DNA of 64,000 nt from Candidatus Aminicenantes bacterium (GCA_011049545.1 DRHQ01000083.1:29766-93765); one strand, 5' to 3'; numbered from the stretch's first letter, positions 19,868 through 35,676 are shown. The notes: generated by a model from the letters alone, not told the origin. Program-made: numbers and translations.

Positions 19868-19942
19868 CGGGGAGTAGCGTAGCCTGGTTAGCGCGCCTGC
19901 TTTGGGAGCAGGAGGTCGTCGGTTCGAATCCGATCTCCCCGA
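19868..19942 (+). tRNA. tRNA-Pro (anticodon TGG)
   Basis: Manual fold: acceptor cggggag/ctccccg, D arm, anticodon stem cctgc/gcagg with loop ttTGGga, T arm gtcgg-ttcgaat-ccgat, discriminator A. No encoded CCA. Confidence 0.85.
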
Positions 19943-20011
19943 TTAAAACTTAAGACGGATAAAGGAACAATCGGATATAGAAGCCGATTGAGATAGAAAA
20001 ATATCAAGGAT

Positions 20012-20089
20012 GCGCCTGTAGCTCAGTCAGGATAGAGCAGCTGCCTTCTAAGCAGCGGGTCGGAGGTTCGAGTCCTTCCAGGCGTGCCA
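20012..20089 (+). tRNA. tRNA-Arg (anticodon TCT)
   Basis: Acceptor gcgcctg/caggcgt (G1·U72), anticodon stem gctgc/gcagc with loop ctTCTaa, T arm ggagg-ttcgagt-ccttc, encoded CCA. Confidence 0.8.
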
Positions 20090-20235
20090 CCCTTCCTCCT
20101 TATTTACCAATAGCTTTCCTTGGATTTTGATTTCATAGAGCCTATACTATTTTTAGTTTTTTTGACACAAAAATGTCAAAGGAGTGACAAATTCGACATC
20201 CCACTGTTACACGGGCTGATGTCTGGTTTTTTCTC

Positions 20236-20300
20236 ATTGACTTGAAACTTTTTCTTATGATATAAGTCAAAGAGTCACAGCTTAGGGACATCGTGAGCAA
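20236..20300 (+). promoter_or_regulatory. Repeated promoter + conserved leader module, copy 1 (TTGACt-N17-TGATATAAG-TCAAAGAGTCACAGCTTAGGGA)
   Basis: One of three near-identical modules (with 21192-21247 and 30104-30200), each ~120-150 bp after a tRNA or tRNA fragment and before an ORF. A possible 22-codon GTG-initiated leader ORF lies at 20293-20361. Confidence 0.45.
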
Positions 20301-20381
20301 CGCAAGAGGGAAGAACTTTTGCCTACATCATAAAGGCAGAATTCTATCTCCATATCTATAAACCAAAAAAGGAGGTATTTT

Positions 20382-20912
20382 ATGAAGAACAGAATTATCG
20401 TAGGAACAATTCTTTTTGCTTTTCTTCTTTCTGGAACTGTTTTTGCTCAAGAGAAAAAACAGAAAGTTGAAGCACCTCAATTAACAGTAGAGCAGAAATG
20501 GAAACGTGCTATGTCTAATCTGAATGCGATATTCATTGCAAGTATTGCCTATGCCAAATCTCAGGGAAAATCGCCATCACACTATGGTAAGTATATGGGA
20601 GAATTATTTGCGACAAGCTGGGAAGGAGTTAAAGGCGTAACAGATTTCATAGAGGCAATGCATTGGAATTGGCAAATGTGGGAAGATTTCCAGATTGAAG
20701 TCTTGGAAGAGTCTGAGAACTTTTATAAAGCGAAGATTAAAGGGATAGGCGAAAAATACATCACAGAAGGGTCGGAAGCAGGAGTCACATTAAACGAATA
20801 TTATGATTGCTGGGAACAACTTATGATGCCGATAACGAATTATTTAGGTCTGGAATACAAACAAAAAATAGAAGGAGATTGGATAGTATTTACAGTTAAA
20901 GAAAAGAAATAG
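20382..20912 (+). CDS. Hypothetical secreted protein (signal peptide)
   Basis: 176-aa ORF with a good RBS (AAAGGAGG). N-terminal signal MKNRIIVGTILFAFLLSGTVFAQ. No recognisable domain. Confidence 0.5.
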   Translation: MKNRIIVGTILFAFLLSGTVFAQEKKQKVEAPQLTVEQKWKRAMSNLNAIFIASIAYAKSQGKSPSHYGKYMGELFATSWEGVKGVTDFIEAMHWNWQMWEDFQIEVLEESENFYKAKIKGIGEKYITEGSEAGVTLNEYYDCWEQLMMPITNYLGLEYKQKIEGDWIVFTVKEKK

Positions 20913-21022
20913 ACACTCATAGCATACAAATCCAAGCCTTCCTGAGGTTGAGGATGCCAGGAAGAGGCTGGTTCCGTCCAGATCTTCTTATAAGCCCAAA
21001 GAAAAATAGGCTACGAAGGCCG

Positions 21023-21084
21023 AGCGGGTGGCTGTTAACCACTAGGTTGTAGGTTCGAGTCCTACCCGAGGAGCCATCTTTTTA
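21023..21084 (+). repeat. 3' fragment of a tRNA-Asn(GTT)-like gene (anticodon arm + T arm + acceptor 3' + CCA), direct repeat copy 1
   Basis: ggtgg-ctGTTaa-ccact…gtagg-ttcgagt-cctac-ccgagga-g-cca. No matching 5' acceptor or D arm upstream. ~95% identical to 29921-29982. Confidence 0.75.
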
Positions 21085-21191
21085 TGGGGTAAAAAGCTCT
21101 CGACTATTTAAGCAACCTTATCCGTAGTTAGGCAAGTTTAGGCATTTATTGACACACCACTGACACACAGGAATAGGTGTGTTTTTCTTGT

Positions 21192-21247
21192 TTGAATCTA
21201 ATTTTCCATTGTGAAATAAGTCAAAGAGTCACGGCTAGGGGAGCATA
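21192..21247 (+). promoter_or_regulatory. Repeated promoter + leader module, copy 2
   Basis: ttgaat-N16-gtgaaataag-tcaaagagtcacggctagggga, then the ATG of the 21248 ORF. Confidence 0.45.
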
Positions 21248-21691
21248 ATGAACCCAGCAAAGGAAGGAATCATGTTTGCCGCCCTTTACACTAAAAAGTG
21301 TATAAAGGAACAGGCACAAGATGAGCTTCAATATTTTCGTATGTATCCCACTGAAAGAGATGAAAGTGGGCGCACCATGTTGCTACCATTTGCATTCAAA
21401 GAGAGAGACTATTTCAATTGTCCAGAAAGAATGAAAGACGATGAGGTAAAAGTCGTAAAGGAGTATTCACCCCATCATGTATACACTTCTGACCCAAGAG
21501 AGTCATATCTAATTGACGAATGTAAATGGATTCCAACAGCAGACCAACTTAGGAAAGGTCTAGAAAGGATAGGTTATTCTATTGGAGATACTTCATATAT
21601 GAATGAAGAGCAAATACTTGATTTAATAATGAGAGAACGAAAAAAGATGAGGTGGAGTAGAGAAAAAGAAAACTGGGTAAAGGTTTTGTAG
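21248..21691 (+). CDS. Hypothetical protein
   Basis: 147-aa ORF with RBS AGGGGA. No recognisable domain. Confidence 0.5.
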   Translation: MNPAKEGIMFAALYTKKCIKEQAQDELQYFRMYPTERDESGRTMLLPFAFKERDYFNCPERMKDDEVKVVKEYSPHHVYTSDPRESYLIDECKWIPTADQLRKGLERIGYSIGDTSYMNEEQILDLIMRERKKMRWSREKENWVKVL

Positions 21692-21839
21692 AAGAGACTA
21701 TAATATACACCTACAATCGTAAACCCGTCGCTCCAGCGCACAATCTCACGACAAAACGACCTTCCTTGACTTCACGGATACCTGAGCATAAAATCATTTC
21801 GAGATTGTCAGTAATCAAAAGACTTAATGAGAAGGGGAG

Positions 21840-22280
21840 GTGAAAAAAATGGAACAACCCCTTTTAATATTACTTGGAGCATTATTAGCAATAGGAGGAG
21901 GTTTTATTAGCCAACACAACCAAAGCCGTCTTGATCAAAGGAGACAAGATAGAGAGTTTTTCCATCAGGCAGAAGAGATTTTAATTGAGATGCAGCCTTA
22001 TTTGGAAGAGGTCATGACTCCTCCTAGTAAAGAATTACATGAGTTAAGTAAAAAACTTCTTTATGCTGCTATGAGAATCAAAACAAAAGGCTATCTTGAC
22101 TTAGCATTAAAATTAGTTGAATTTGCTAGAATGGATGCCAAAAAGACTAAGGATGAAGCAATTAGTCTCATCCAGGAGGTTGCTGCGACAAGTAAAAGTG
22201 CGCTCGATATGCATCACAGAAAACGAAATGAAATTGTCAAAAAAGCCTGGGAAGAGCTAAAAAAGATTGGAAGGGGATAG
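21840..22280 (+). CDS. Hypothetical protein with N-terminal transmembrane helix
   Basis: 146-aa ORF with RBS GGGGAGG. TM segment LLILLGALLAIGGGFI, then a helical/charged region. Confidence 0.5.
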   Translation: MKKMEQPLLILLGALLAIGGGFISQHNQSRLDQRRQDREFFHQAEEILIEMQPYLEEVMTPPSKELHELSKKLLYAAMRIKTKGYLDLALKLVEFARMDAKKTKDEAISLIQEVAATSKSALDMHHRKRNEIVKKAWEELKKIGRG

Positions 22281-22474
22281 CGAAGAGAAGCATTGATTAA
22301 TACACTCCTAAAATTTAATAAATCTTTTGATCTCGATTTTTACTCCCTGCCTTTCAATACTCCCAATCTCGACTGGCGATCTGTGTCGCACGATGGGTAT
22401 TATGTAAACTTGCTACCTTGTAAAATGACCTTGAGAGCGGGAGAATAGATTATTGAGGGAAAAGGAGGGGGACA

Positions 22475-22620
22475 TGAAAAAACTTTGCATGATTATTCCT
22501 CTGATCCTGGTTCTATGTTTTATCGTCAGCTGTCAAAATCAGGAAGCAATGGCAGAGCTTGAAGAGATGAAGGCCCAGGCAGAGGTTGAGGAGCAGAATA
22601 AGGAAGTAATCGAAATTTAG
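22475..22620 (+). CDS. Possible small lipoprotein (48 aa), not in the ORF track
   Basis: ATG after AAGGAGGGGGA. MKKLCMIIPLILVLCFIVSCQNQ… has signal and lipobox features. Short and unverified. Confidence 0.3.
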
Positions 22621-22626
22621 TAAGAA

Positions 22627-24114
22627 ATGAGCGATATATATAGAAAGTTAGACAAAGTTTTCTTAGAACTAACTCAAGCCCTTTCTATCTATAGTAAATC
22701 AAAATTCTTGCAAGATTATTTTATAACTTCCTACATTTCATTTATATATGCAAATATTATTAAAAATTTTTTTATTAATTTGACAAGAGAGACTATAAAA
22801 AAATTAAATTTACCTAAAAGCCAAATAGGTGAAATCAAAAAAAAATATAAAGAAATACAGAAAGAAATAAATTTAGCAATATCTATTTCATTGAAGGGTA
22901 AAAAAATAGATGAAAAATATTACAGTAAATTTAAATCTAATATTAAAAAAGATTTCCCTGAATTTATAAAAATATTATCTACAGTTGAAAAAGAGATTAA
23001 AATTGCGAGGCTAAAGAAATTTATTAACAAAAAGAAAATAGAGATAAAAAGGGTAGGTCAAGATGAAGCAGATCTTCATAAAGATTTATTAACAAAAGCA
23101 TTAGAAGCGTATATTCAGGAAAAAAAAGAAATTCCGAGTATGATAAAAGTAAAAAACCTTATTAATACTATTGGAAGAGAAATCTTACCAAAATTTTCAG
23201 AAGCTTTAACGGCAGATCTTATTAAGGATAGACACGCGTTTTTATCAGATCAAAGAAAACTCCAAAAGGGATTTGAGACTCGATTATATGAAAGGTGGAA
23301 GGATCCTTTAGACCTCTTTGAATGCTTAATTCAAATTTCTTTAGAATCTGGAGAAAAACGTAAAAAAAAGTTAAATAATAAGAAAAATAATAAAAATAAT
23401 TCTAAATATGACGCGCTAATTAAACTTCATGCCAGAGCCTTACATATTTCTAACGAAATAGCTATTTTGCTGAAATCGGGTTATGCAGATGGTGCAAACG
23501 CCAGATGGAGGAGCCTCCATGAATTAGCTGTTATTTCTTTTTTCCTATGTGAAAATAATAATGATGCTTCAAAAAGATATTTAGAGCATAGCGTTATAAG
23601 AGCACTAAAAGAGGCAAAGGATTATAGAACCTATTATAAAAAATTGGGATATCCTCCTATAAAAAGAAAAGAGCTTCTGATGTTAGAAAAGGAAGCAGAG
23701 AGGCTATGCAAAAAGTATAGTGATAGATTTCAAGATGATTATGGTTGGATTCCCAGCTCCATATTAAAAGAAAGAAATTTTAAAGCTCTAGCACAATCTG
23801 TTAAGCTTGATAAATTACGTCCATACTATAACCTTGCTTGCGATTCTTCCCATGGAGGTTCAAAGGGGTTTTATAGACTTGGTTTAATGGATGATTCTCA
23901 AGACAAAATATTTCTTGTTGGTTCAAGTAATTATGGACTTGCTAGTCCTCTCCAAAATTCTGCTATTTCTTTATTACACGTTTCCTCTTGCTTATTAACT
24001 TTGGAGCCTGACTTTGAAAGCATTATACAAATATATGTGATGGGTAATTTTATGAACGAAATTTGTGATAAAGCAGTTGAAGTTCAAAGTAAGATTGAAA
24101 AGGAAACAGATTAA
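22627..24114 (+). CDS. Large Lys/Ile-rich hypothetical protein with a C-terminal HEPN-like R-x4-H motif (Abi-like candidate)
   Basis: 495-aa ORF in very AT-rich DNA. The C-terminal region has …GANARWRSLHELAV… (R-x4-H) inside a predicted helical domain. No other recognisable motif. Confidence 0.55.
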   Translation: MSDIYRKLDKVFLELTQALSIYSKSKFLQDYFITSYISFIYANIIKNFFINLTRETIKKLNLPKSQIGEIKKKYKEIQKEINLAISISLKGKKIDEKYYSKFKSNIKKDFPEFIKILSTVEKEIKIARLKKFINKKKIEIKRVGQDEADLHKDLLTKALEAYIQEKKEIPSMIKVKNLINTIGREILPKFSEALTADLIKDRHAFLSDQRKLQKGFETRLYERWKDPLDLFECLIQISLESGEKRKKKLNNKKNNKNNSKYDALIKLHARALHISNEIAILLKSGYADGANARWRSLHELAVISFFLCENNNDASKRYLEHSVIRALKEAKDYRTYYKKLGYPPIKRKELLMLEKEAERLCKKYSDRFQDDYGWIPSSILKERNFKALAQSVKLDKLRPYYNLACDSSHGGSKGFYRLGLMDDSQDKIFLVGSSNYGLASPLQNSAISLLHVSSCLLTLEPDFESIIQIYVMGNFMNEICDKAVEVQSKIEKETD

Positions 24115-24192
24115 TAGTAATTCTGCTTCTTTAATAATCATTATGTTAACTCGCTCCGTATGAAATGACCTTTATATATTTTAGGAGTAGAC

Positions 24193-24645
24193 ATGAGCAC
24201 AACTCAATTAATATTTCCTTGGTACCATAGGATAAGACATGTAGATTTAAAGAAAATAAAACACCCTACATCTTTGTTGGATTTTCAAGAATTATCATAT
24301 ACAGAAAGATATGATTCTCGATATTTTAAATATCTTAACTTGTCAAATAAGAAATTGTCTACAAACTGGCTAGACTCGTGGGAATCAATATTTGTAGTCG
24401 GTCCATTTATAGAAAGAAAACAGAAATATAATAAAATTCCGTTCATTGTCTTTATAACAGAGGGAAGCATTTATAGCCAATTGGTGGTTTTAAGCAGAAG
24501 ACTTGAGCTGCCTTATTATGAGTTCGGGATAATGCCAGATTTATATATATATCCTTCTAAGCTTCACAAATATTTCACTATGAAAAAGGATAAGCTTTGG
24601 CTTAGAACTGAAGCCGTTTCTATTAGACTTAAGAAAGGAGGATGA
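24193..24645 (+). CDS. Hypothetical protein, translationally coupled upstream partner of the HEPN-like ORF
   Basis: 150-aa ORF whose stop is 1 nt before the next ATG. No canonical nucleotidyltransferase G[SG]…D.D motif found. Confidence 0.5.
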   Translation: MSTTQLIFPWYHRIRHVDLKKIKHPTSLLDFQELSYTERYDSRYFKYLNLSNKKLSTNWLDSWESIFVVGPFIERKQKYNKIPFIVFITEGSIYSQLVVLSRRLELPYYEFGIMPDLYIYPSKLHKYFTMKKDKLWLRTEAVSIRLKKGG

Positions 24646-24646
24646 A

Positions 24647-25042
24647 ATGCCCAATCCAAACCAGTACAAAAAAATATCAGATAGATATCTAAATGCTTCG
24701 GATTTATTGGTTGATGATGTTCATGAGGCAGCAGGATTTTCTTTATATCATGCCTTTGAATCCATGGGAGCTGCATGGATAAGAACGAATGCTAGAGTTG
24801 TGCCTCATAGACATGAAAGCAAAATTAATATGTTCGTATCTTTAACGAGAGAAACTGGGCACAGAACTGGTATTGGGCTGGTAGGTATTTTATTAAACTC
24901 ATTGAGAAATAAGATGCTTTATCCAATTCCTGAAATTCCGTCAGGTTTTTCGATACCTCACATTAAATTCTCAGTCTCAGAAATAAAAAATTTGAGCCGA
25001 AGGGTAAAAGGTATTTTAAATATAATAAGACCTCTAATCTAA
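24647..25042 (+). CDS. HEPN-domain-like small protein
   Basis: 131-aa ORF. ASDLLVDDVHEAAGFSLYHAFESMGAAWIRTNARVVPHRHESKINMF follows the helical HEPN pattern (…A.DL…A..y.a.E…KA…p..H…L.). Confidence 0.45.
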   Translation: MPNPNQYKKISDRYLNASDLLVDDVHEAAGFSLYHAFESMGAAWIRTNARVVPHRHESKINMFVSLTRETGHRTGIGLVGILLNSLRNKMLYPIPEIPSGFSIPHIKFSVSEIKNLSRRVKGILNIIRPLI

Positions 25043-25059
25043 TTACTCAAGAATATTGT

Positions 25060-25560
25060 ATGGATAAAGATAGATTTCTTCGTGTTTTCAAGGAATCATT
25101 GGAAGTAATAACAGAAAAACGCTTCTTCTCATCTGAGCTAGGTTATCAAGGACAACTTGTATCTGAGCTAAATAAAAGATTAATAATGGAGTTGGTTTTT
25201 TCAAACAGGGCAGTCGTTGAGCAAGAATACCAAAAAAGATTGAAGGACCATGGTATCAGAATAAGGCCGGACATAATTATTCATGTCCCATACTCAGAAG
25301 GAATTCATTCCTCAAGGAAAGAAGATAATTACGTGGTTATCCAGCTAAAAAAGAACTCATCAAAAAAAGATGCTTTAGATGATTTAAAAAAAATTGACTT
25401 ATTATTTCAGAATTTAGATTATCCACTTGGTGTTTTTCTGAATATAGGTTCTGAGAAAAATTTTTATAGTTATTATTTAGGAGAATATAGAGATCGAATT
25501 CATTGTTTTGCAGTTCTATTGTCAGCAGAAGACAAGGTAATCATACACAAATCACCATAA
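25060..25560 (+). CDS. Hypothetical protein, possible PD-(D/E)xK nuclease-like fold
   Basis: 166-aa ORF 17 bp after the HEPN-like gene. Contains …E…RPDIIIH…VVIQLKK…, a weak E/PD/QxK arrangement. Confidence 0.45.
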   Translation: MDKDRFLRVFKESLEVITEKRFFSSELGYQGQLVSELNKRLIMELVFSNRAVVEQEYQKRLKDHGIRIRPDIIIHVPYSEGIHSSRKEDNYVVIQLKKNSSKKDALDDLKKIDLLFQNLDYPLGVFLNIGSEKNFYSYYLGEYRDRIHCFAVLLSAEDKVIIHKSP

Positions 25561-25647
25561 AACTTATTTGTCTAAGAGCTAATACCTCTAATGCTTTGCT
25601 ACCTTCTAAGATAAAGAGCCTAAAATAAAGATGGAAGTTTAGACAAG

Positions 25648-25700
25648 TGGAAGTCAAAAACCCTAAAGCCCTAGCTTCCCCGATTTCTGAAAAAGACAGT
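25648..25700 (+). repeat. Island hairpin motif family P5, copy A (GGAAG[CT]CAAA-N-CCTAAAGCC-YTRGCTTCCC-N-GAT[TT]GAAAAAG)
   Basis: Imperfect inverted repeat GGAAGCCAA/TTGGCTTCC followed by GATTGAAAAAG. Four copies, each 60-130 bp upstream of an ORF (25780, 28174, 31890, 32334). Confidence 0.7.
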
Positions 25701-25779
25701 AGAGCGAATTTAAAGCTAATTTCTCTTTCCCGGGAAGATTGTGCCGCACAATCGATATTATGTAAACTTATAAAAACCT

Positions 25780-26688
25780 ATGTCGAATCATAAAAAACAA
25801 CATTCTGTTCCCAAATGTTATCTCAGGGAATTTATTGACCCAGAAACTCCAGGTGGATATGAGCCTTTTATTTGGATTTTTGATAAAAACGGCAAGAACA
25901 AAAGAAAGAAGGCACCTAAAAATGTATTAACAAGTAACAATCTATACACTATTGAAGTCGAAGGGAAGGCTAGGGATTATTCTATTGAAAAAAGCCTCTC
26001 TTCTATTGAGAACGATTTTGCAATTTTGTTCAGACAGAAAATCAAAAATCTATTGCCATTATCAGAGGAGGAGCACATATCTTTGTGCATTTTTATAGCC
26101 ACTATGCTCCAGAGAACTGTTAGCCAGAAAGCTAATCTAGAACATTTCCTTGATGAGCTAATTTCACATGGCGAAAAATTAGCAGCACATCATGGAATTA
26201 AGTCGAGGACTGTTGAGAGCCTAAAAAACTACAAAAGAGATGCTCATAAACTCAATATTTTGAAGATGTTTCCAGAAGTGACTCAAATTTTATTAAATAT
26301 GAGCTTGGCATTCGTAATAGTGGGGAGAAGCAAATCTCGGTTTATTACCTCCGATGACCCATGCACCCTTTTTAATCCAAAATTAAGAGAGCAACGCCTT
26401 ATGGGTCCAGGATTGGGTCAGAAGGAAGTTGAATTGACTATTCCATTATCTCCTGAGATTGCACTCTGTTTGAGCTGGAGTAATTTTCGGGGATTTATTG
26501 AAATTGGAAAACGACAGATTGAAGAATTAAATAGAACAACGCGAGCCCATTGCTATGAACTCTTTATTTCCTCTAGTTCCCATAAAAAATTTAGATGGTT
26601 TTTAAAATACCCTTTGAGCCTAATTTTTGTCATGAAAGTTATCAGACAGAAGTTTAATTATAGAATTCATAGAAATTTTCACTCATGA
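25780..26688 (+). CDS. DUF4238-like protein
   Basis: 302-aa ORF whose N-terminus (HSVPKCYLREF) fits, to my recollection, the family signature H-x-V/I-P-x-x-YL-R/K-x-F. Preceded by a repeated tattatgtaaactt -10-like element. Confidence 0.55.
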   Translation: MSNHKKQHSVPKCYLREFIDPETPGGYEPFIWIFDKNGKNKRKKAPKNVLTSNNLYTIEVEGKARDYSIEKSLSSIENDFAILFRQKIKNLLPLSEEEHISLCIFIATMLQRTVSQKANLEHFLDELISHGEKLAAHHGIKSRTVESLKNYKRDAHKLNILKMFPEVTQILLNMSLAFVIVGRSKSRFITSDDPCTLFNPKLREQRLMGPGLGQKEVELTIPLSPEIALCLSWSNFRGFIEIGKRQIEELNRTTRAHCYELFISSSSHKKFRWFLKYPLSLIFVMKVIRQKFNYRIHRNFHS

Positions 26689-29575: not shown

Positions 29576-29659
29576 AAAATAAGTTCTTCCTGTCTTCTCA
29601 CCTTCAGCCAGATTTAGAGGGGTCTAAATGAATCTGATATTACCAAGCTCTGTAAGCCA

Positions 29660-29860
29660 TTACGGAATTACATCTTTAAACTTCTCTGAAGCAGGTTCTC
29701 CACCAATTCCCCAGTGTGATTTTTGGATTTCATGAATAATCACTTCTACAGCCTGAGTGGGAATCCCTAAATCTACAAAGACCTTAGTTATATTTTGGAT
29801 TGTGATTTTTGCTTTTTCCTGTCCGAAACCTTCCCAGACATTTACATGGATAACGGGCAT
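29660..29860 (-). CDS. Tautomerase family protein (4-oxalocrotonate tautomerase-like)
   Basis: 66-aa ORF starting MPVIHVNVWEG… with catalytic Pro1 after Met, at the typical tautomerase-family length. Confidence 0.6.
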   Translation of the reverse strand: MPVIHVNVWEGFGQEKAKITIQNITKVFVDLGIPTQAVEVIIHEIQKSHWGIGGEPASEKFKDVIP

Positions 29861-29920
29861 TTATTACCTCCAAAGTTTTGTTGATAATAATACTCTACTA
29901 TCTGGATTCTGAAAAATCAA

Positions 29921-29982
29921 AGCGGGTGGCTGTTAACCACTAGGTTGTAGGTTCGAGTCCTGCCCGAGGAGCCATCTTTTTA
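29921..29982 (+). repeat. 3' fragment of a tRNA-Asn(GTT)-like gene, direct repeat copy 2
   Basis: Same as 21023-21084 with one T-stem substitution (cctgc vs cctac). No 5' half present. Confidence 0.75.
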
Positions 29983-30103
29983 GGGGCCAGAGACAACCTC
30001 TCATTTACTCACCATTAGGCAATAGCGAGCAATTGTAGTCATTTTGTGTCATGCGGACGTCACCGGTCTATCACATGGCAGAAAACAGGTCATTATTACG
30101 TGG

Positions 30104-30200
30104 GCTTGACATTTGTCTTCCAACAATTGACCTCATTTTTTCCCTGTGATATAAGCCATAGAGAGTGTTAGCTTCAGCTAGTTGGTGGGATCGTTAATTC
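30104..30200 (+). promoter_or_regulatory. Repeated promoter + leader module, copy 3
   Basis: ttgacc-N17-tgatataag-ccatagagagtgttagcttcagctag, upstream of the 30276 ORF. Confidence 0.4.
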
Positions 30201-30275
30201 TGCTCCTGCTATTTTCATTAGGCTGATTTCACGAAAAATTAAATCTAGCTCAAAGATTAGGAGGGATAACCAGTA

Positions 30276-31760
30276 ATGAAGAAAAACTGGATGGCAGAAC
30301 TCACCTATCATTATGAAAAAACTCGGCGCCGATATCCTCAAGATCGGCTGATGATTCTTTTTGATATCGACGGTACAATTCTAGATATGCGCTATATGGT
30401 ATTTCATGTCCTGAAAGCCTTTGATAAAAAGCATGACACCCATTTTTTTCGAAAGCTTAATGTCTCTGATATTACTGTACACGAGAATCAAGTGGATAGT
30501 TTTTTAGCAGAGTTACGAATTCCATCAGAGGAACAGAGAGAGATCATAAAGTGGTATAATCAGCATCGCTGGTCTTCGGAGTATATCCTTCAGTCCCACC
30601 ATCCATTTTCTGGAGTGCTTGAGGTTATTCGATGGTTCCAACTCCAGCCAAATACCTTTGTTGGCTTGAATACTGGCCGGCCTGAATCAATTCTAAGCGA
30701 CACCTTGAGATCCCTGAATAAATTAGGTAAAGAGTATAAAGTTCAATTTAGTGATGAACTGTTGCGTATGAATCCTGGGGGCTGGGAACAAGAAGTAGAA
30801 AATTCGAAGGTTGCTGGAGTGCGCTATTTTCAAAAAAAAGGGTATCACATCTTCGCCTTTGTAGACAACGAGCCCAATAATTTGAAGGTGGTTTCCAATA
30901 TTGATCCAGATCAAGAAATTCTCCTACTTCATGCGAATACTATCTTCGAATCTAAAAGGACCAGATTACCTTCCCGTACGGTCAAAGGTAAAGCATACGA
31001 CATAACTGAACTAATTCCCGAGAAAGAACTGCCCCAGCATATTCAATTTGTTTGGCATGGTATAAACGACGAAGTGAACTTACGTCAATTTCTAGCTTCT
31101 GAGATTACTTGGGGGGAATGTGATGTTCGTATGGATCCCATAGCCAATGAGTTGATTCTTCGTCACGATTCCTTTGTAGAACTCCCTCTGGATGTAGACG
31201 AAGATTGGTTTAGTTTGGATCGTCTGCTCCATCGCTTGTTAAAAACAGGCAAGTCAATTAAGCTCGATTTAAAGTCAGGCGGTATTTTGGTAGATAAGGC
31301 TTTGAAATTCATTGAATCTTCCAGCTTTGATGAATCTCGCCTGTGGTTTAACGGCAATGTGGAAAGACTGCAAGAGCAAGGGTTCAGAAAATTAGCCAGT
31401 GCCCACCCCGATGCTATTTTGCAATGCCCTGTTGATTTTTTAGCTCCTCTGATTAGCAGTGCCCCAGAAAAAGCTCAGGAAATACTCGATATGTTTATAA
31501 AATGGGGTATCAACCGCTTTTCCATTAATTGGAAAACTCAGAACATGCGCAATTTCTTTGATCAGATGGATAAATGGGGATTTGAAGTCAATATTTACAA
31601 CGTTCCTGATTTAGAGTCATTCCTGGAGATGGTGCTTCTCATGCCGCGATCTATCACGTCCGATTTCAATTTTCCTAAATGGCATTATTATGGCAGAGGC
31701 TCAGGAGAAGATGGTAGCCATTATGAATATTCTATACGAAAGACGAAAGGAAGAAAGTAG
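30276..31760 (+). CDS. Fusion protein: N-terminal HAD-superfamily phosphatase domain + C-terminal GDPD/PLC-like phosphodiesterase (TIM-barrel) domain
   Basis: 494-aa ORF. Carries HAD motif I ILFDIDGTILD. The C-terminal half (FVWHGINDEVN…ECDVRMDPIANELILRHDSF) parallels the GDPD pattern H-R-G…E-N…E-x-D-V…H-D. Confidence 0.55.
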   Translation: MKKNWMAELTYHYEKTRRRYPQDRLMILFDIDGTILDMRYMVFHVLKAFDKKHDTHFFRKLNVSDITVHENQVDSFLAELRIPSEEQREIIKWYNQHRWSSEYILQSHHPFSGVLEVIRWFQLQPNTFVGLNTGRPESILSDTLRSLNKLGKEYKVQFSDELLRMNPGGWEQEVENSKVAGVRYFQKKGYHIFAFVDNEPNNLKVVSNIDPDQEILLLHANTIFESKRTRLPSRTVKGKAYDITELIPEKELPQHIQFVWHGINDEVNLRQFLASEITWGECDVRMDPIANELILRHDSFVELPLDVDEDWFSLDRLLHRLLKTGKSIKLDLKSGGILVDKALKFIESSSFDESRLWFNGNVERLQEQGFRKLASAHPDAILQCPVDFLAPLISSAPEKAQEILDMFIKWGINRFSINWKTQNMRNFFDQMDKWGFEVNIYNVPDLESFLEMVLLMPRSITSDFNFPKWHYYGRGSGEDGSHYEYSIRKTKGRK

Positions 31761-31802
31761 GTGCAACTAGAAGTTTACACACCATGAAAAATTATCCAGA
31801 GC

Positions 31803-31850
31803 AGGAAGCCAAAGACATTAAAGCCTTGGCTTCCCTGGATTGAAAAAGGA
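31803..31850 (+). repeat. Island hairpin motif family P5, copy C
   Basis: ggaagccaaagacattaaagccttggcttccctggattgaaaaag (best palindrome of the family). Confidence 0.7.
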
Positions 31851-31889
31851 CGCTGATCGAGTTAGAATTCTTATAAGGGAGTAAAAAAT

Positions 31890-32243
31890 ATGAAAGTTTT
31901 ACTCATTATTAACGATGCACCGTATGGGACAGAAAAAGCCTACAATGCTATGCGGCTAGCGATGATGATTCAAAAAGAACACGCTGATGCAGAGGTTCGT
32001 ATTTTCCTGCTGGCAGATGCAGTAACATGTGCGGTCCCAAAACAGTCAACTCCAGAGGGATACTACAATCTAGAACGGATGTTTAAATCGGTCATAAAAA
32101 AGGGTGGAGTAGTGAAGGCTTGTGGTACGTGTGCCAACGCTCGCGGAATCAAAGGAATAAACCTGATAGATGGTATTGAAATAAGCACAATGAGCCAATT
32201 GAGCCAATGGACAGTAAGTTCAGACAAAGTTTTAACCTTCTGA
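31890..32243 (+). CDS. DsrE/DsrF-like (TusD-like sulfur-relay fold) family protein
   Basis: 117-aa ORF: MKVLLIINDAPYGTEKAYNAMRLA…KACGTCANARGI… — length and motifs recalled as DsrE/DsrF-family-like. Confidence 0.55.
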   Translation: MKVLLIINDAPYGTEKAYNAMRLAMMIQKEHADAEVRIFLLADAVTCAVPKQSTPEGYYNLERMFKSVIKKGGVVKACGTCANARGIKGINLIDGIEISTMSQLSQWTVSSDKVLTF

Positions 32244-32296
32244 AGCTACAATATTAAAGTTATATAATCCTGAATTTTCATATCTTTTGAGGCGAG

Positions 32297-32330
32297 TGGA
32301 AGCCAAATCTCCTAAAGCCTTCGACTTCCC
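32297..32330 (+). repeat. Island hairpin motif family P5, copy D (degenerate)
   Basis: ggaagccaaatctcctaaagccttcgacttccc. Confidence 0.55.
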
Positions 32331-32333
32331 ATT

Positions 32334-32555
32334 ATGCAGGAGGTGGTTGAGAAGCACCCCGATTATAGCAATCCGAAGAATGGATTTGCGCAAATCTGGT
32401 ATTCGGAGCATTGTACGGAAGAGCTTTTATCCTTGGTAGCGCTGCGGAAGCCTAACTGCAAGGATCAGATGCGGTCTATTTGTTGCCTGCATCCGCTTGT
32501 TGGGCAGTCAGTGCGACGTAGATCACCGATGGAGTTTTCGAATCGTCTCGTTTGA
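32334..32555 (+). CDS. Possible small hypothetical ORF (73 aa) overlapping the 3' end of the convergent NYN gene
   Basis: ATG directly after P5 copy D with an AGGAGG-like site. Overlaps the opposite-strand gene by ~80 bp; may be spurious. Confidence 0.25.
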   Translation: MQEVVEKHPDYSNPKNGFAQIWYSEHCTEELLSLVALRKPNCKDQMRSICCLHPLVGQSVRRRSPMEFSNRLV

Positions 32556-33225
32556 GTGTAAATGTTTTGCGGCAATCCTTAATGAGCGACAGGAGACCTT
32601 TGTGACCAAATGTCCGGGGATCAAATGCCGGGTCCAATCGACGAAGAACAGACCCCATTGTCGACAGATTAATCCATTCTTCTTCCCTCGCAACCATCTC
32701 GAACGCTTTAAGAAGAAGAGGCTCAGGGTCAGACAGATCAGACTTCTCTTCCTTTTTCGTTATTTTGTTCGTTTCCTTTGTTTCAGTAAGGTTCTCGCAA
32801 TAGATAAATTGATTGCATGCGTTGGTGAAGGCTTCTGGAGTTTTCTTCTCCCCGACTCCAATGACAAAAAGCCCTTCCTCTCTTATTCTTGTTGCTAGTC
32901 GTGTGTAATCGCTATCACTGGAAACAATGCAAAAGCCGCCAACATCGTTGCTGTGGAGTAGATCCATCGCATCGATTATCATCGCGCTATCTGTTGCATT
33001 CTTGCCGACCGTATACCTGAACTGCTGAATCGGTTGAATAGCATGTTTGTGGAGTAATTTTTTCCAGCTATTCATGCTTGTAGTGGTCCAGTCTCCATAT
33101 ATCCGCTTGACTGTGATCATGCCGAATTTGCTAATTTCTGCCAAGATCTGAGGAAGAAGTGACGCTTGCGCATTGTCTCCATCAATGAGTACGGCAAACT
33201 TTTCTTGCTTAGATTGTTCATCCAT
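32476..33225 (-). CDS. NYN (LabA-like) nuclease domain protein with C-terminal OST-HTH/LOTUS domain
   Basis: Start chosen at the ATG preceded by GGAGGG (MDEQSKQEKFAVLIDGDNA…). Carries NYN acidic residues (D-x-D-N, …SSDSDY…) and a C-terminal LOTUS-like helix-turn-helix. Confidence 0.65.
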   Translation of the reverse strand: MDEQSKQEKFAVLIDGDNAQASLLPQILAEISKFGMITVKRIYGDWTTTSMNSWKKLLHKHAIQPIQQFRYTVGKNATDSAMIIDAMDLLHSNDVGGFCIVSSDSDYTRLATRIREEGLFVIGVGEKKTPEAFTNACNQFIYCENLTETKETNKITKKEEKSDLSDPEPLLLKAFEMVAREEEWINLSTMGSVLRRLDPAFDPRTFGHKGLLSLIKDCRKTFTLKRDDSKTPSVIYVALTAQQADAGNK

Positions 33226-33409
33226 TTTGTAGCCCTCCACTGGTCGATTTAGGCCCAACAATTACTATACCGCATGCAATAAAATGTGAAAACTGAAGCT
33301 CAAATAACATCTTGAATTAATGAACCCATGCATCATAGCAATGAAAACACAGTAATATTCTATCAATATCCTTGTTATGCTACAAGCCTCATATCTATTA
33401 TTATGTTAA

Positions 33410-33460
33410 CCTGTGATTTCAAAGTTATTGATTATCAAAAAATCAGAAAAATAATGAAAT
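33410..33460 (+). repeat. ~50-bp direct repeat (CCTGTGA[CT]TTCAAAGTTATTGATTATCAA…AATAATGAAA), left copy
   Basis: Matches 35026-35075 at ~85%. The two copies bracket the Zn-ribbon and membrane-protein genes. Confidence 0.7.
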
Positions 33461-33537
33461 TTGAAATCCGGAATTTGGGGCTGGAATTCAGGAATGCTCT
33501 CTCATCCTTCAGCAATTATTCTATGGAAATTGATCCG

Positions 33538-33559
33538 TAAATGGGGCCTGTCCCCATTT
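33538..33559. repeat. Palindromic repeat family P1 (variant aaatggggcctgtccccattt)
   Basis: Lies inside the ORF-track ORF 33461..33934, which argues that ORF's 5' part is non-coding. Confidence 0.75.
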
Positions 33560-33643
33560 CTCTACCCTGCTAGCGTAATCCTTACCTTGACTTCATGGCC
33601 CCCTGCGAATAAAATCTTCCCTCAATCAAAATGGAGATGGAAG

Positions 33644-33934
33644 ATGAGATGTAAACATTGTCTTAAAGATGTGACGCAATATGATCCTCTTGGCTACTGT
33701 GTTCAGTGTGGCGTATGGTACAAAGCCGAAGGCGAAGAAATAAAGGGTGTATACATGCGCTGTTCTACAAGAGACGACAATCCAGAAAAGTGCAATCTGG
33801 TAGTTCAAAGCCAGTTCAGAGGGGCTGAAGAATTGCCAGAAAGTAGAGAAAAACCTATTGCTACAGCAAGAATGCCCAACATTCGTAAAGCTGATAAGAT
33901 CTGTGCTTCTTGTGCGGATAAACACTTTGTTTAG
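33644..33934 (+). CDS. Small zinc-ribbon protein (two CxxC pairs)
   Basis: 96-aa ORF from the ATG after GGAG: MRCKHCLKDV…CVQCG…CASCADKHFV. The upstream part of the track ORF contains a palindromic repeat. Confidence 0.5.
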   Translation: MRCKHCLKDVTQYDPLGYCVQCGVWYKAEGEEIKGVYMRCSTRDDNPEKCNLVVQSQFRGAEELPESREKPIATARMPNIRKADKICASCADKHFV

Positions 33935-33957
33935 TAGTTTTTTAATTAGACCTTAGA

Positions 33958-33985
33958 GCGGTCAGATTCGTGGCCGTTTTTTTTT
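33958..33985 (+). terminator. Rho-independent terminator after the Zn-ribbon gene (part of a repeated 'agagcggtYagattYgYggccgTTTTTTT' module)
   Basis: Stem cggtca/tggccg followed by T9. A similar module recurs at 35262-35297. Confidence 0.55.
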
Positions 33986-34017
33986 ATCCGGAGAAAACCA
34001 TATCCTTTCACGGGTCC

Positions 34018-34040
34018 GAAAATGGGGCCAGGCCCCATTT
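34018..34040. repeat. Palindromic repeat family P1
   Basis: aaatggggccaggccccattt. Confidence 0.8.
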
Positions 34041-34090
34041 CTCTAACGATTATTGAGGAAGGATAAATGAATTATGTTTCCTATTGAGTC

Positions 34091-34885
34091 ATGATCGATA
34101 CGTTCATTATTAAGTTGGTCCTTTCCTTCATTGTGGGCGGTGCTTGGGTCACAATCGCGACTTTGATCGCTGATAAATATGGAACAAAATTAGGCGGTAT
34201 TATCATAGGTCTTCCCTCCACTCTGCTCGTGTCTCTGTTTTTCATCGGTTGGACGCAGTCTCCTGGTGTGGCAGTTGAAGCGACAACGATTGTGCCGATC
34301 ATCGGAGCTGTCAACGCGTTGTTTCTGGTTGCGTATATCGCCCTGGTCAGAGTGAACTTTTGGATGGCGTTATCTGGCTCGGCACTTTTTTGGGCTTTGT
34401 GTTCGTTTAGTTTGTTAGTTTTTAAGTTCAGCAATTTTTATCTTTCATTAATGATCTATGTCATCGTGGTGTTCATTTCGTATTTCATAATTGAAAAGGG
34501 AATTAGAGTAAAATCAAAGTCCGCCCGAGAGATAACGCACACTGTCGGCACTTTACTGTTCCGGGGACTCTTAAGCGGAACGATAATTGCTCTCGCAGTG
34601 GCGATGGGAAAGATCGGGGGCCCGCTGTTGGGCGGCATATTCGCCATGTTTCCAGCCATGTTCCTGAGCACTGTATTGATCACTTATTTTTCTCAGGGAC
34701 CGCTGTTTTCCTCTGCGGTGATGAAAGTTGCACTTTTCAGTGCAGTGAGCGTGGTTTTGTATGGAGTGCTTGTGAGGTCCACGTATATCCCGCTTGGGTT
34801 GGGGTGGGGGACTCTTGTATCGATCATCATTTCTTTTTCCACTGCGTTTTTTATTCATGTCCTTGTCATCAAGAGAATATCCTGA
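34091..34885 (+). CDS. Polytopic integral membrane protein (≥6 TM helices), unknown function
   Basis: 264-aa ORF that is hydrophobic throughout. The two halves look internally similar (…GGIIIGLPSTLLVS… / …GGIFAMFPAMFLST…). Confidence 0.6.
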   Translation: MIDTFIIKLVLSFIVGGAWVTIATLIADKYGTKLGGIIIGLPSTLLVSLFFIGWTQSPGVAVEATTIVPIIGAVNALFLVAYIALVRVNFWMALSGSALFWALCSFSLLVFKFSNFYLSLMIYVIVVFISYFIIEKGIRVKSKSAREITHTVGTLLFRGLLSGTIIALAVAMGKIGGPLLGGIFAMFPAMFLSTVLITYFSQGPLFSSAVMKVALFSAVSVVLYGVLVRSTYIPLGLGWGTLVSIIISFSTAFFIHVLVIKRIS

Positions 34886-35025
34886 TAACTCCGGGGAAAG
34901 AGATAAGGACAGGTATTTATGCTCAGTAATTAGGTAACATTTTTGCTCTATCTGTCGAAGAAAAAAGTGTCATTGCGGGCGTAATACTAAAAAATCGATG
35001 AGGAATATAATATAAATTATGTCTA

Positions 35026-35075
35026 CCTGTGACTTCAAAGTTATTGATTATCAAGAAGTCTATAAATAATGAAAG
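35026..35075 (+). repeat. ~50-bp direct repeat, right copy (pairs with 33410-33460)
   Basis: cctgtgacttcaaagttattgattatcaagaagtctataaataatgaaag. Confidence 0.7.
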
Positions 35076-35238
35076 ACGGGATAGTTTGACAATTTATGTT
35101 TAAAATTCGGTCCATCTTTAGGTGAAGATAGATTTTATTTTTCGGGAAGCACAAACTCATAATCAATGAAATATTTATATTTGTTCGTATGATAGTAAAC
35201 AAGATCTGGATTCATAGAGCCGACGCATAAAAGGCGTA

Positions 35239-35260
35239 AATGGGGCCTGGCCCCATTTCT
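35239..35260. repeat. Palindromic repeat family P1
   Basis: aaatggggcctggccccattt; a half copy also sits at 35296-35320. Confidence 0.8.
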
Positions 35261-35676
35261 CATAGAGCGGTTAGATTTGCGGCCGGTTTTTTTAAAAGCA
35301 GCCTGGCCCCATTTCCCAACACCTCATTTCCCAACATCTCCCAGTCTGTAGGGTGATTTTGGCTTGTATGTATCCTCGACTGCGGTGAACTTTTTAGCCT
35401 TTTCAGGTGAGGGAATGAATGCAAAATTCATCTTTCATATCCTCTCTACTGATGATTGACAGTATGAGAGCACTCTGCAACCATATGAGCTTGCTGTTAA
35501 TAACCTGTGGAGACTATTTGAAGAAACTGTTTTTGGGAAGAAGAGAAAAATAACCTGCAGTGACCGTCTATTATTTATGAATTATTTGAGAGCTGTTTCA
35601 AGAAAGACAAACTTGATAGGAGTTGACAAATATTGTCAAATTGTTTATTTTTAAAGGAACCTTTTGAGGATCAATA

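What the first reader, a model, noticed from the sequence alone, without database searches (positions are those of the whole stretch)
19868..35676. ~15.7-kb tRNA-associated accessory region between mutL/tRNA-Pro/tRNA-Arg and the pilBTC operon
Conserved housekeeping DNA on both sides brackets a stretch with a different gene content. Inside it are uncharacterised, mostly same-strand ORFs, two pairs of tRNA 3'-fragment direct repeats, three copies of a promoter/leader module and several private repeat families. That is the layout expected of a tRNA-targeted genomic island or integration hot-spot.
Basis: partly seen in the sequence, partly recalled or inferred. Interest (0 to 1): 0.7.

Follow-up and report, generated by a model that had tools for sequence, protein, structure and literature searches.

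The report
Variable tRNA-linked island in Aminicenantes
The stretch between mutL plus two tRNA genes and the pilus operon holds different genes in every related genome; here it includes a foreign low-GC block with likely anti-phage genes, bounded by leftover tRNA pieces from old integrations, which makes it an ordinary kind of genomic island newly seen in an uncultured sediment bacterium.

Summary
tRNA-Pro (19867-19943) and tRNA-Arg (20012-20089) follow mutL. Two pairs of tRNA-3'-fragment direct repeats exist: 21023-21088/29921-29986 (97% identical) and 19893-19982/29489-29578 (88%). GC falls from 0.433 to 0.31-0.35 at 22-29 kb.

Eight related Candidatus Aminicenantes genomes keep mutL-tRNA-Pro-tRNA-Arg on one side and pilBTC on the other. 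The interval between them runs from 6.5 to 15.9 kb and its genes differ in each genome. Homology always breaks about 35-100 nt after tRNA-Arg and resumes about 330-410 nt before pilB. One relative (L027) lacks exactly the 8.9-kb block bounded by the Asn-like fragments.

The interval is therefore a hypervariable, tRNA-linked hotspot. It is a mosaic of decayed integrated elements and promoter-plus-gene cassettes, not one intact island. No integrase or transposase occurs in the 64-kb window or in the interval of any variant examined.

Cargo is defence-like: DUF4238 here, and AbiE, ParE, PycTM or Ymh in relatives. The other low-GC genes have no assigned function. The 96-aa gene at 33644-33934 is conserved next to pilB in most relatives, and DUF3147 (33986-35262) is a separate small insertion.

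This is a new member of a known kind, of modest interest.

The parts
19867..19943 (+). tRNA-Pro(tgg). Part of the conserved left flank and a target of past integration.
   Evidence: ARAGORN; Rfam 66.8 bits; conserved in L001-L003, L046, L047 and L060.
20012..20089 (+). tRNA-Arg(tct), the last conserved gene of the left flank. About 34 nt after it (to ~20123) are also conserved in all relatives.
20124..21022 (+). Cassette 1: a post-tRNA stretch with TGACAC/GTGACA repeats, the D5 promoter (20228-20288), and a 176-aa secreted protein gene (20382-20912). L002 and L060 share it to 20192, L047 to 20377, and L027 shares 20597-21008. It is absent from L001, L003, L044 and L046.
21023..21088 (+). tRNA-Asn(GTT)-like 3' fragment, copy 1. 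It is the left direct repeat of the 8.9-kb block (attL-like).
21089..29920 (+). 8.9-kb block bounded by the Asn-like repeats and absent from L027. It is composite. Its parts are 147-aa and 146-aa genes with D5 and D9 promoters, the low-GC cargo, a chimeric tRNA scar, and a tautomerase gene.
   Evidence: L027 shares w20597-21008 and then w29944 onward, with unrelated DNA between. Repeats. Alignment A2.
22400..29300 (+). Low-GC foreign segment (GC 0.21-0.37).
22627..24114 (+). DUF5677 protein (495 aa). A horizontally mobile stand-alone gene of unproven function.
   Evidence: Pfam 2e-29; phrog_27456 3.5e-54; homologues at 45-66% identity in distant archaeal and bacterial MAGs; neighbours not conserved.
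24193..25560 (+). Three small ORFs of 150, 131 and 166 aa. The 166-aa protein has a weak PD-Lambda-3_A match; the other two have no match.
25651..27564 (+). Unit made of the D2 promoter module (25651-25693), a DUF4238 gene (25780-26688) and a TPR gene (26698-27564).
   Evidence: Pfam DUF4238 2e-37; PADLOC DUF4238-Pers 3.3e-11. A DUF4238 protein gave strong T7 resistance in E. coli (bioRxiv 10.1101/2021.01.21.427644).
28069..29281 (+). Unit made of the D2 promoter module (28069-28111) and an orphan 337-aa gene (28174-29187). It is found as a unit elsewhere.
   Evidence: L056 shares exactly w28069-29281 at 84% identity. Only 8 homologues exist. Their contexts include integrase fragments, a methyltransferase, Fic and proteases.
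29489..29578 (+). Chimeric tRNA 3' scar (attR-like). It joins a tRNA-Arg(ACG)-like anticodon arm to the tRNA-Pro T-arm and acceptor, followed by 38 nt of the native Pro-Arg spacer.
   Evidence: L044 has the same junction type, followed by the intact spacer and tRNA-Arg.
29660..29860 (-). 4-oxalocrotonate tautomerase-family gene (66 aa).
   Evidence: Pfam 1.1e-10.
29921..29986 (+). tRNA-Asn-like 3' fragment, copy 2 (attR-like). Its right flank is the resident one, shared with L046 and L027.
30004..31863 (+). HAD-like cassette. It comprises a ~70-nt post-tRNA module (30004-30075), a promoter, a 494-aa HAD/Menorin-like gene (30276-31760) and a D2 module (31806-31848). It occurs at 97% identity in other contexts, for example directly after tRNA-Glu in L006 and L007.
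31890..33261 (.). DsrE-like gene (31890-32243, +), a fourth D2-like copy (32300-32342), and a NYN/OST-HTH gene (32476-33261, -). None was seen in the interval of any relative.
33400..33564 (+). Portable intergenic module made of D8 plus the D4 hairpin. It is also present in L013, L026, L028, L046, L047 and L060.
33644..33934 (+). 96-aa Cys-rich (zinc-ribbon-like) gene. It is a conserved neighbour of pilB in L042, L044, L045, L046 and L047, and also occurs in L003.
33986..35262 (+). Window-specific 1.28-kb insertion carrying the DUF3147 membrane-protein gene (34091-34885). It is flanked by about 30-nt D4 hairpin repeats.
   Evidence: In relatives the homology jumps from w33985 to w35263. Pfam.
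35677..37431 (+). pilB, the first gene of the conserved right flank (pilB, pilT, pilC, pilS/R, pilins).

Best explanation
The mutL-tRNA-Pro-tRNA-Arg to pilB interval is a hypervariable chromosomal hotspot, a tRNA-linked flexible genomic island, in a marine-sediment Candidatus Aminicenantes lineage. The window's 15.7-kb version is a mosaic made in several steps.

(a) Integrative elements inserted by site-specific recombination at tRNA or tRNA-like T-arm sites. They left an attR-like chimeric tRNA-Pro scar at 29489 and a pair of 66-nt tRNA-Asn-like direct repeats around an 8.9-kb block. This step is inferred from anatomy and from the presence/absence polymorphism.

(b) Those elements then lost their integrases and decayed. 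The absence of integrases is shown; the loss is inferred.

(c) Small promoter-plus-gene cassettes were swapped in and out at short conserved intergenic modules (D2, D8/D4, and the post-tRNA module). The mechanism was probably homologous or short-homology recombination of incoming DNA. The homology breaks at module edges are shown; the mechanism is inferred.

The 22.4-29.3 kb low-GC segment is the most recent foreign acquisition. It probably serves anti-phage defence, since it carries DUF4238 and mobile orphan genes. The locus is not now an autonomous mobile element.
For: Flanks conserved, content variable. W is the window. Intervals are about 15.9 kb (W), 13.3 kb (L001/L042), 8.6 kb (L060), 6.7 kb (L046) and 6.45 kb (L047). 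L002, L003 and L044 are different again. L046 and L047 encode an identical PilB yet differ in the left half of the interval.

Composition. z scores reach -5.2 and tetranucleotide distance is doubled.

Polymorphism at the repeats. L027 lacks w21009-29943. L046 carries a single Asn-like site directly after tRNA-Arg, with the same right flank as window copy 2.

attR-type junctions. The same Arg(ACG)-like arm is fused to the tRNA-Pro T-arm in W and L044, and to the Asn-like T-arm in L027. In L044 the junction follows AbiE cargo and precedes the native spacer and tRNA-Arg.

Other tRNA scars. Fragments of other identities occur in relatives, for example an Ala-like fragment in L002.

Arm-site-like repeats. 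Locus-specific short direct repeats lie 60-120 nt after each tRNA end.

Cassette mobility. The D2 plus 337-aa unit recurs in L056. The HAD cassette recurs behind tRNA-Glu in L006 and L007. Only the 74-nt D2 is shared with L042, at 94.6% identity.

Integrase association elsewhere. Homologues of the 337-aa gene sit beside integrase fragments and a tRNA-Lys-like scar in L054.

Defence or toxin-antitoxin content. DUF4238 is present in W. AbiEi/AbiEii, RHH-ParE, PycTM and Ymh are present in relatives.

Assembly. The arrangement recurs on contigs from several separate assembly records of the same population.
Against: No integrase, excisionase or transposase was found in the 64-kb window or in the interval of any of the eight variants. 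Site-specific integration is therefore inferred only from scars.

The att-like ends of the putative elements do not match each other: Asn-like on the left and Pro-like on the right in W, and a different fragment on the left and Asn-like on the right in L027. No single clean integration event can be reconstructed.

No intact tRNA-Asn is present at the locus.

The variable DNA begins about 35 nt after tRNA-Arg rather than inside it.

Defence function is untested. DUF5677 was tested in a preprint and is not among the genes reported as active. Most of the cargo has no assignable function, and the structure prediction for the 337-aa protein failed.
Confidence: 0.75

Rival explanations
1. Pure homologous-recombination replacement. 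The interval varies only because DNA taken up from relatives recombines in the conserved flanks (mutL/tRNAs and pilB). The organism encodes ComEC and type IV pili. On this view the tRNA fragments are passive hitch-hikers with no role in insertion.
For: There is no integrase in any variant. The flanks are conserved at about 90-95% DNA identity. ComEC lies at 58633-61002 and pilBTC is adjacent. Cassette homology breaks at short conserved modules.
Against: The 8.9-kb block is bounded precisely by 66-nt direct repeats, and L027 lacks exactly that block. Chimeric junctions share one element-derived arm fused to two different tRNA T-arms. Flank recombination alone does not predict either feature.
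Confidence: 0.15
2. Tn7-like or CRISPR-associated-transposon-type homing. Elements insert at a fixed distance downstream of tRNA-Arg, and the GTGACA/TGACAC repeats are transposase-binding end repeats.
For: Variable DNA begins about 35 nt after the tRNA-Arg 3' end in all variants. Short repeats such as TGACAC, GTGACA and TGTCA follow. The resemblance to Tn7-like ends is recalled from memory only.
Against: No TnsA, TnsB, TnsC, TniQ or Cas12k gene occurs in the window or in any variant. No TGT...ACA termini or 5-bp target duplications were seen at the breakpoints. The repeat motifs differ from locus to locus.
Confidence: 0.03
3. Integron-like cassette array (a cluster of attC sites without an integrase). 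On this view the same-strand ORFs are promoterless cassettes separated by attC sites.
For: The ORFs are mostly same-strand and uncharacterised, and conserved elements lie at cassette junctions.
Against: No IntI is present. ORFs in the low-GC block are spaced by -1 to 17 nt, which leaves no room for attC sites. The junction element D2 carries a sigma-70-type promoter (TTGAAA-N17-TAGAAT) and a short palindrome. It is not an attC-like imperfect hairpin, and it shows no structural covariation.
Confidence: 0.02
4. Intact, currently mobile island, prophage or integrative conjugative element.
For: The region is adjacent to tRNA genes, has direct repeats, and has atypical GC.
Against: There are no integrase, excisionase, replication, conjugation or virion genes. 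PHROGs gives only two families of unknown function. Viral-contig scans found no relatives.
Confidence: 0.03
5. Assembly artefact: a chimeric metagenomic contig that joins unrelated DNA at the repeats.
For: Some contigs break at the 66-nt repeats, at w21052 and w29932.
Against: Several long contigs from separate assembly records (ENA, JGI, NCBI, Logan) span the junctions at 100% identity.
Confidence: 0.02

Closest known systems
tRNA-associated genomic islands built by tandem accretion and decay. The reference case is the integrase-less cis-mobilizable elements (CIMEs) left by integrative elements in streptococci (from my own knowledge, not a paper read here).
   Same: The region is next to tRNA genes and has several att-like direct repeats made of tRNA 3' ends. 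It also has atypical composition, composite structure, loss of recombinase genes, and presence/absence polymorphism at the repeats.
   Different: No integrase was seen in any of eight variants. The repeats are of a tRNA (Asn-like) that is not intact at the locus. Left and right scars of a putative element do not match. Trans-mobilisation is untested.
Prochlorococcus-type hypervariable genomic islands with repeated tRNA 3' fragments (Coleman et al. 2006, recalled from memory).
   Same: Flanks are conserved and content is strain-specific. tRNA genes sit at the border and partial tRNA repeats lie inside, read as remnants of repeated integration.
   Different: The phylum and habitat differ, the cargo differs, and the comparison rests on metagenome-assembled contigs only.
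Defence islands and core defence hotspots, for example the P2/P4 hotspots described in bioRxiv 10.1101/2021.01.21.427644.
   Same: A fixed chromosomal position is occupied by different short defence or toxin-antitoxin modules in different genomes. These are DUF4238 here and AbiE, ParE, PycTM or Ymh in relatives. DUF4238 is an experimentally supported anti-T7 gene family.
   Different: The hotspot is chromosomal, not inside a prophage or satellite. Much of the cargo is not recognisably defensive (HAD-like, DsrE, tautomerase, peptidase, MacB). No function has been tested.
Additive flexible genomic islands of marine bacteria (Alteromonas-type; from my own knowledge).
   Same: The region is tRNA-adjacent, gene cassettes are gained and lost between close relatives, and it is a mosaic.
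   Different: Those islands usually retain integrases or transposases somewhere in the array; none is seen here.

Membership tests
tRNA-integrated genomic island (tyrosine-integrase type) | Located at or next to a tRNA gene | tested here: met
   tRNA-Pro and tRNA-Arg lie at the left border. The same holds in all relatives.
tRNA-integrated genomic island (tyrosine-integrase type) | Flanked by direct repeats that contain a tRNA 3' end (attL/attR) | tested here: met
   A 66-nt Asn-like repeat pair lies at 21023 and 29921, and a 90-nt Pro repeat pair at 19893 and 29489. The Asn-like pair does not derive from an intact tRNA at this locus.
tRNA-integrated genomic island (tyrosine-integrase type) | Encodes an integrase or recombinase | tested here: not met
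   No hit in Pfam, PHROGs, NCBIfam or PADLOC for any interval ORF. None in the rest of the window or in the interval of any relative.
tRNA-integrated genomic island (tyrosine-integrase type) | Atypical base composition | tested here: met
   The 22-29 kb stretch has GC z scores of -3.4 to -5.2, GC3 of 0.21-0.33, and doubled tetranucleotide distance. The 30-36 kb stretch is near background.
tRNA-integrated genomic island (tyrosine-integrase type) | Presence/absence polymorphism among related genomes with breakpoints at the att repeats | tested here: met
   L027 lacks w21009-29943. L046 has a single site.
Defence island / defence hotspot | Contains genes of experimentally supported defence families | tested here: inconclusive
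   DUF4238 matches Pfam at 2e-37 and PADLOC DUF4238-Pers at 3.3e-11, and the family has literature support. The PD-Lambda-3_A match is weak at 7.6e-6. DUF5677 is unproven. The other genes have no match.
Defence island / defence hotspot | Same position occupied by different defence or toxin-antitoxin systems in related genomes | tested here: met
   AbiEi/AbiEii occurs in L042, L044, L046 and L047. RHH-ParE and PycTM occur in L042. A Ymh-family gene occurs in L060.
Defence island / defence hotspot | Protects against phage | not testable with these tools
   This needs expression of the genes in a host followed by phage challenge.
Integron / attC cassette array | IntI integrase and attC recombination sites between cassettes | tested here: not met
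   No IntI is present. ORF spacing of -1 to 17 nt in the low-GC block leaves no room for attC. The junction element D2 is promoter-like, with no conserved folded structure. No dedicated attC model was run.
Tn7-like / CRISPR-associated transposon | tnsA/B/C and tniQ genes (with or without cas genes) and TGT...ACA ends with a 5-bp duplication | tested here: not met
   No such genes occur in the window or in any variant. No such termini were seen at the breakpoints.
Prophage | Virion, packaging or lysis genes | tested here: not met
   PHROGs matched only two families of unknown function. Viral-contig scans were negative.

The most novel reading that the evidence does not exclude
The interval is an integrase-free cassette-exchange locus. 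On this reading, small promoter-plus-gene cassettes carry a limited vocabulary of conserved linker modules: the 70-nt D2 palindrome-promoter, the D8/D4 module, and a ~70-nt 'post-tRNA' module. These cassettes are captured next to tRNA 3' ends or tRNA-3'-half mimics by a trans-acting recombinase encoded elsewhere, or by transformation-driven short-homology recombination. That would make it a tRNA-mimic-based analogue of an integron. D2 would also define a co-regulated set of accessory and defence genes.
Probability: 0.1. Interest if true: 0.6.

Novelty: new member of a known kind. Interest (0 to 1): 0.3.

Why it matters
It documents a well-bounded, recurrently remodelled accessory locus in Candidatus Aminicenantes, an abundant but uncultured sediment phylum whose mobile-element and defence biology is little described. 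It supplies concrete boundaries (mutL-tRNA-Pro-tRNA-Arg on one side and the 96-aa gene plus pilB on the other) that can be used to mine further variants from metagenomes. It also flags a few candidates worth testing: the DUF4238-TPR pair, the cross-domain mobile ~500-aa DUF5677 protein, the orphan 337-aa gene that elsewhere sits beside a methyltransferase, and the portable D2 promoter module. In itself it does not change any concept.

Tried and rejected
Hidden recombinase. Pfam, PHROGs, NCBIfam and PADLOC on all interval ORFs, including relaxed thresholds, and Pfam on the rest of the window found none.

337-aa protein. PDB sequence search gave nothing meaningful. It has only 8 close homologues. 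The AlphaFold model was unusable at pLDDT 34, so no fold search was run. A restriction-enzyme role is suggested only by an adjacent methyltransferase in L054 and L055.

DUF5677. There is no PDB relative, and its neighbours are not conserved. The four-gene run 22627-25560 is therefore not a conserved system.

131-aa protein. My by-eye guess that it is HEPN-like got no support.

Search for an attP-bearing element in viral contigs. The Asn-fragment pattern gave 0 hits. The Arg(ACG)-arm pattern hit only ordinary phage tRNA-Arg genes. That was useful only for identifying the arm.

Close relatives of DUF5677, DUF4238 and the 337-aa protein in viral contigs: none.

D2 as a structured RNA. There was no Rfam hit and no consensus structure or covariation (my slices clipped the 5' arm, but by-eye comparison showed only degenerative changes). 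It is better read as a promoter with an upstream palindrome. The promoter scan as a whole is not above chance (49 found against 48 expected).

Empty site. No genome was found in which tRNA-Arg abuts pilB.

Same-population contigs gave no alternative junctions.

Full report
OBSERVATION. Throughout, W means the window and L-numbers are loci fetched from related genomes. ARAGORN finds only two tRNA genes in the 64-kb window: tRNA-Pro(tgg) at 19867-19943 and tRNA-Arg(tct) at 20012-20089. They lie just after mutL (18036-19757; Pfam). pilB starts at 35677 and is followed by pilT, pilC, pilS/R and pilin genes. Between these flanks the ORFs are mostly on the + strand and mostly unannotatable.

The repeat finder confirms two pairs of tRNA-derived direct repeats. 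The first is 21023-21088 vs 29921-29986, 66 nt at 97% identity. Its anticodon loop CTGTTAA and its ...CCGAGGAGCCA end make it tRNA-Asn-like. The second is 19893-19982 vs 29489-29578, 90 nt at 88% identity, covering the tRNA-Pro 3' part plus 40 nt of the Pro-Arg spacer. Reading the sequence shows that the extra copies lack 5' halves. Rfam's tRNA model still scores them at 26-29.5 bits. A simple T-arm scan finds such motifs only at the two genes, these three fragments, and one probable chance site in 64 kb.

GC is 0.433 +/- 0.023 outside the region. It falls to 0.31-0.35 at 22-29 kb (z scores of -3.4 to -5.2). GC3 there is 0.21-0.33 against about 0.45, and tetranucleotide distance is doubled. 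The 30-36 kb stretch is close to background.

The promoter/leader module D5 has two clear copies (20228, 21182) and a weak third near 30130. Repeat families D2, D5, D7, D8 and D9 are confined to the interval. The D4 hairpin also occurs at 8.7 and 10.5 kb, so it is a genome-wide REP-like element.

Contigs from ENA, JGI, NCBI and Logan assembly records of the same marine-sediment population reproduce the arrangement at 99.8-100% identity. Mis-assembly is therefore very unlikely. Some short contigs simply break inside the 66-nt repeat.

WHO AND WHERE. MutL is 87-93% identical to proteins of MAGs labelled Candidatus Aminicenantes. PilB relatives carry the same label.

COMPARATIVE TEST. Anchoring on MutL, on the HAD-like gene and on PilB relatives gave eight distinct versions of the locus. 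In every one, DNA homology to the window runs through mutL, tRNA-Pro and tRNA-Arg. It stops at window 20105-20124 in L001, L003, L044 and L046, at 20192 in L002 and L060, and at 20377 in L047. On the other side it resumes at 35263 or 35350 and continues for more than 8 kb through pilBTC. A small conserved patch at 33424-33985 holds the 96-aa Cys-rich gene, which lies directly upstream of pilB in L042, L044, L045, L046 and L047.

The interval is about 15.9 kb here, 13.3 kb in L001/L042, 8.6 kb in L060, 6.7 kb in L046 and 6.45 kb in L047. Its genes are different each time:
- L042 has unknown ORFs, PycTM, a beta-propeller, AbiEi/AbiEii, RHH-ParE, MacB and PadR.
- L044 has AbiE, CMD, AbiEi and several unknown ORFs.
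- L046 has small unknown ORFs plus AbiE.
- L047 has an M4 peptidase plus AbiE.
- L060 has FG-GAP, HD, CBS and Ymh genes.
- L003 has an esterase, MacB, an amidohydrolase and others.

L046 and L047 encode the identical PilB protein yet differ in the left half of the interval, so turnover is recent. No genome has the tRNAs abutting pilB.

ANATOMY OF THE WINDOW'S VERSION. L027 carries the 3' end of the 176-aa gene (w20597-21008, 94% identity). It then has 0.94 kb of unrelated DNA, and then homology from w29944 onward. It thus lacks exactly the block bounded by the two Asn-like fragments. L046 has a single Asn-like site 63 nt after tRNA-Arg, with the same right flank as the window's copy 2. Copy 1's right flank is the start of the inserted block (alignment A2). 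This is the signature of insertion into a pre-existing site with duplication of a 66-nt core.

The 'Pro-like' fragment at 29489 is chimeric. Its anticodon arm (GCGTCTGACTGCGAATCAGAAG) is of tRNA-Arg(ACG) type; a viral scan with that pattern hit only phage tRNA-Arg(acg) genes. Its T-arm, acceptor and the next 38 nt are those of the resident tRNA-Pro and spacer.

L044 has the same arm fused to a decayed tRNA-Pro T-arm. There it follows AbiE cargo and precedes the intact spacer and tRNA-Arg, a textbook attR arrangement. L027 has the same arm fused to the Asn-like T-arm. One element-derived arm joined to two different T-arms points to site-specific recombination with crossover at the variable-loop/T-stem boundary. 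Other scars exist in relatives: an Ala-like fragment in L002 and a further fragment in L027. Short locus-specific direct repeats lie 60-120 nt after each tRNA end, as integrase arm sites would. Examples are TTAGGCA x2 plus TGACACAC x2 in the window, and GAGTGGCAAAT x3 in L001.

However, the left and right scars of any one putative element do not match. No intact tRNA-Asn is present. No integrase or transposase is found in the interval, in the rest of the window, or in the interval of any variant. The locus is best seen as a graveyard of integrations, not a live element.

CASSETTES AND LINKERS. The HAD-like gene recurs at 97% identity in several metagenome contigs, with its upstream ~70-nt module (from w30004) and a downstream D2 copy (to w31863). 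Its flanks there are unrelated. In L006 and L007 it sits 55 nt after tRNA-Glu at a different chromosomal site. The D2 plus 337-aa unit (w28069-29281) recurs at 84% identity in L056, behind Fic, protease and integrase-fragment genes. L042 shares only the 74-nt D2 (94.6% identity) between unrelated genes.

D2 is always on the coding strand, 20-100 nt before a start codon. It contains an AAGCCnnGGCTT palindrome followed by a good sigma-70 promoter, TTGAAA-N17-TAGAAT. It shows no structural covariation and has no Rfam family. I read it as a portable regulated promoter that also serves as a patch of homology at which cassettes are exchanged. The DUF3147 gene (33986-35262) is a further small insertion flanked by D4 hairpins.

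CARGO. DUF4238 matches Pfam at 2e-37 and PADLOC DUF4238-Pers at 3.3e-11. It belongs to a family shown to give strong T7 resistance when cloned from a P2 hotspot (bioRxiv 10.1101/2021.01.21.427644).

The 495-aa DUF5677 protein matches a PHROG of unknown function. It has homologues at 45-66% identity in Heimdallarchaeota, Methanoperedens, Bathyarchaeota, Aenigmatarchaeota and Actinobacteria MAGs, with non-conserved neighbours. It is therefore a mobile stand-alone gene. A preprint tested a DUF5677 gene for defence and did not list it among the active ones.

The 337-aa gene is a narrow orphan. In L054 and L055 it follows a DNA methyltransferase inside an island that has an integrase fragment at one end and a tRNA-Lys-like scar at the other. 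Its structure could not be predicted. The remaining small ORFs have no matches. With AbiE, ParE, PycTM and Ymh in the relatives, the hotspot looks defence- and toxin-antitoxin-rich, but it also carries metabolic and transport genes.

VERDICT. It is a new member of a known kind: a tRNA-linked flexible or defence island with att scars. The least ordinary aspect is the integrase-free cassette shuffling at conserved linker modules next to tRNA mimics. That is not excluded as a distinct mechanism, but it is not demonstrated. I give it about 0.1 probability.

Noticed in passing
window 2759-3055: An 88-nt tandem array of 3.4 copies. Each unit has the hairpin GGGCTTGA-TTCA-TCAAGCCC. A copy also lies in L046's variable interval (L046 4591-4657). 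It looks like a REP/BIME-type element.
   Followed up: partly
window 8727-8811, 10496-10606, 33534-33564, 34015-34045, 35233-35319: The palindrome AAATGGGGCCWGGCCCCATTT (D4) is dispersed genome-wide. It is a REP-like or terminator-like hairpin and is not private to the island.
   Followed up: partly
window 16601-17985: Two SnoaL/DUF4440-like genes on the minus strand (one at GC 0.358) are absent from L046 and L047 and are replaced by other genes in L001. This is a second small variable spot just upstream of mutL.
   Followed up: partly
window ~16250 (L035 5764-5869): A contig from the same population has 104 extra nt inside the Pur_DNA_glyco ORF and splits it. This is either a population-level indel or a small insertion element.
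   Followed up: no
window 30177: The window lacks about 200 nt that L005, L006, L007 and L027 carry in the leader of the HAD-like gene, between the promoter module and the ribosome-binding site.
   Followed up: no
window 22627-24114: The ~500-aa DUF5677 protein has homologues at 45-66% identity across distant archaeal and bacterial phyla with unrelated neighbours. This points to cross-domain horizontal transfer of a single gene of unknown function.
   Followed up: partly
L054 1-8168: A comparator island. It has an integrase gene fragment, a ParG-like gene, an N6/N4 methyltransferase, the 340-aa homologue, a Ser/Thr kinase and unknown ORFs, and it ends in a tRNA-Lys(ctt)-like 3' fragment at about 8060-8110.
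   Followed up: partly
L007 2167-3405: A group II intron reverse transcriptase/maturase lies just upstream of the tRNA-Glu that precedes the HAD cassette.
   Followed up: no
window 58633-61002: A ComEC competence channel gene lies in the same window as the pilBTC, pilS/R and pilin cluster. The organism may be naturally transformable, which bears on how the hotspot is remodelled.
   Followed up: no
window 25740-25769, 22382-22411, 29354-29383: The D7 family (TGTGYCGCAC...TATTATGTAAACTT) has three copies, each in an intergenic gap of the low-GC block or at its edges. It may be another promoter type and was not characterised.
   Followed up: no
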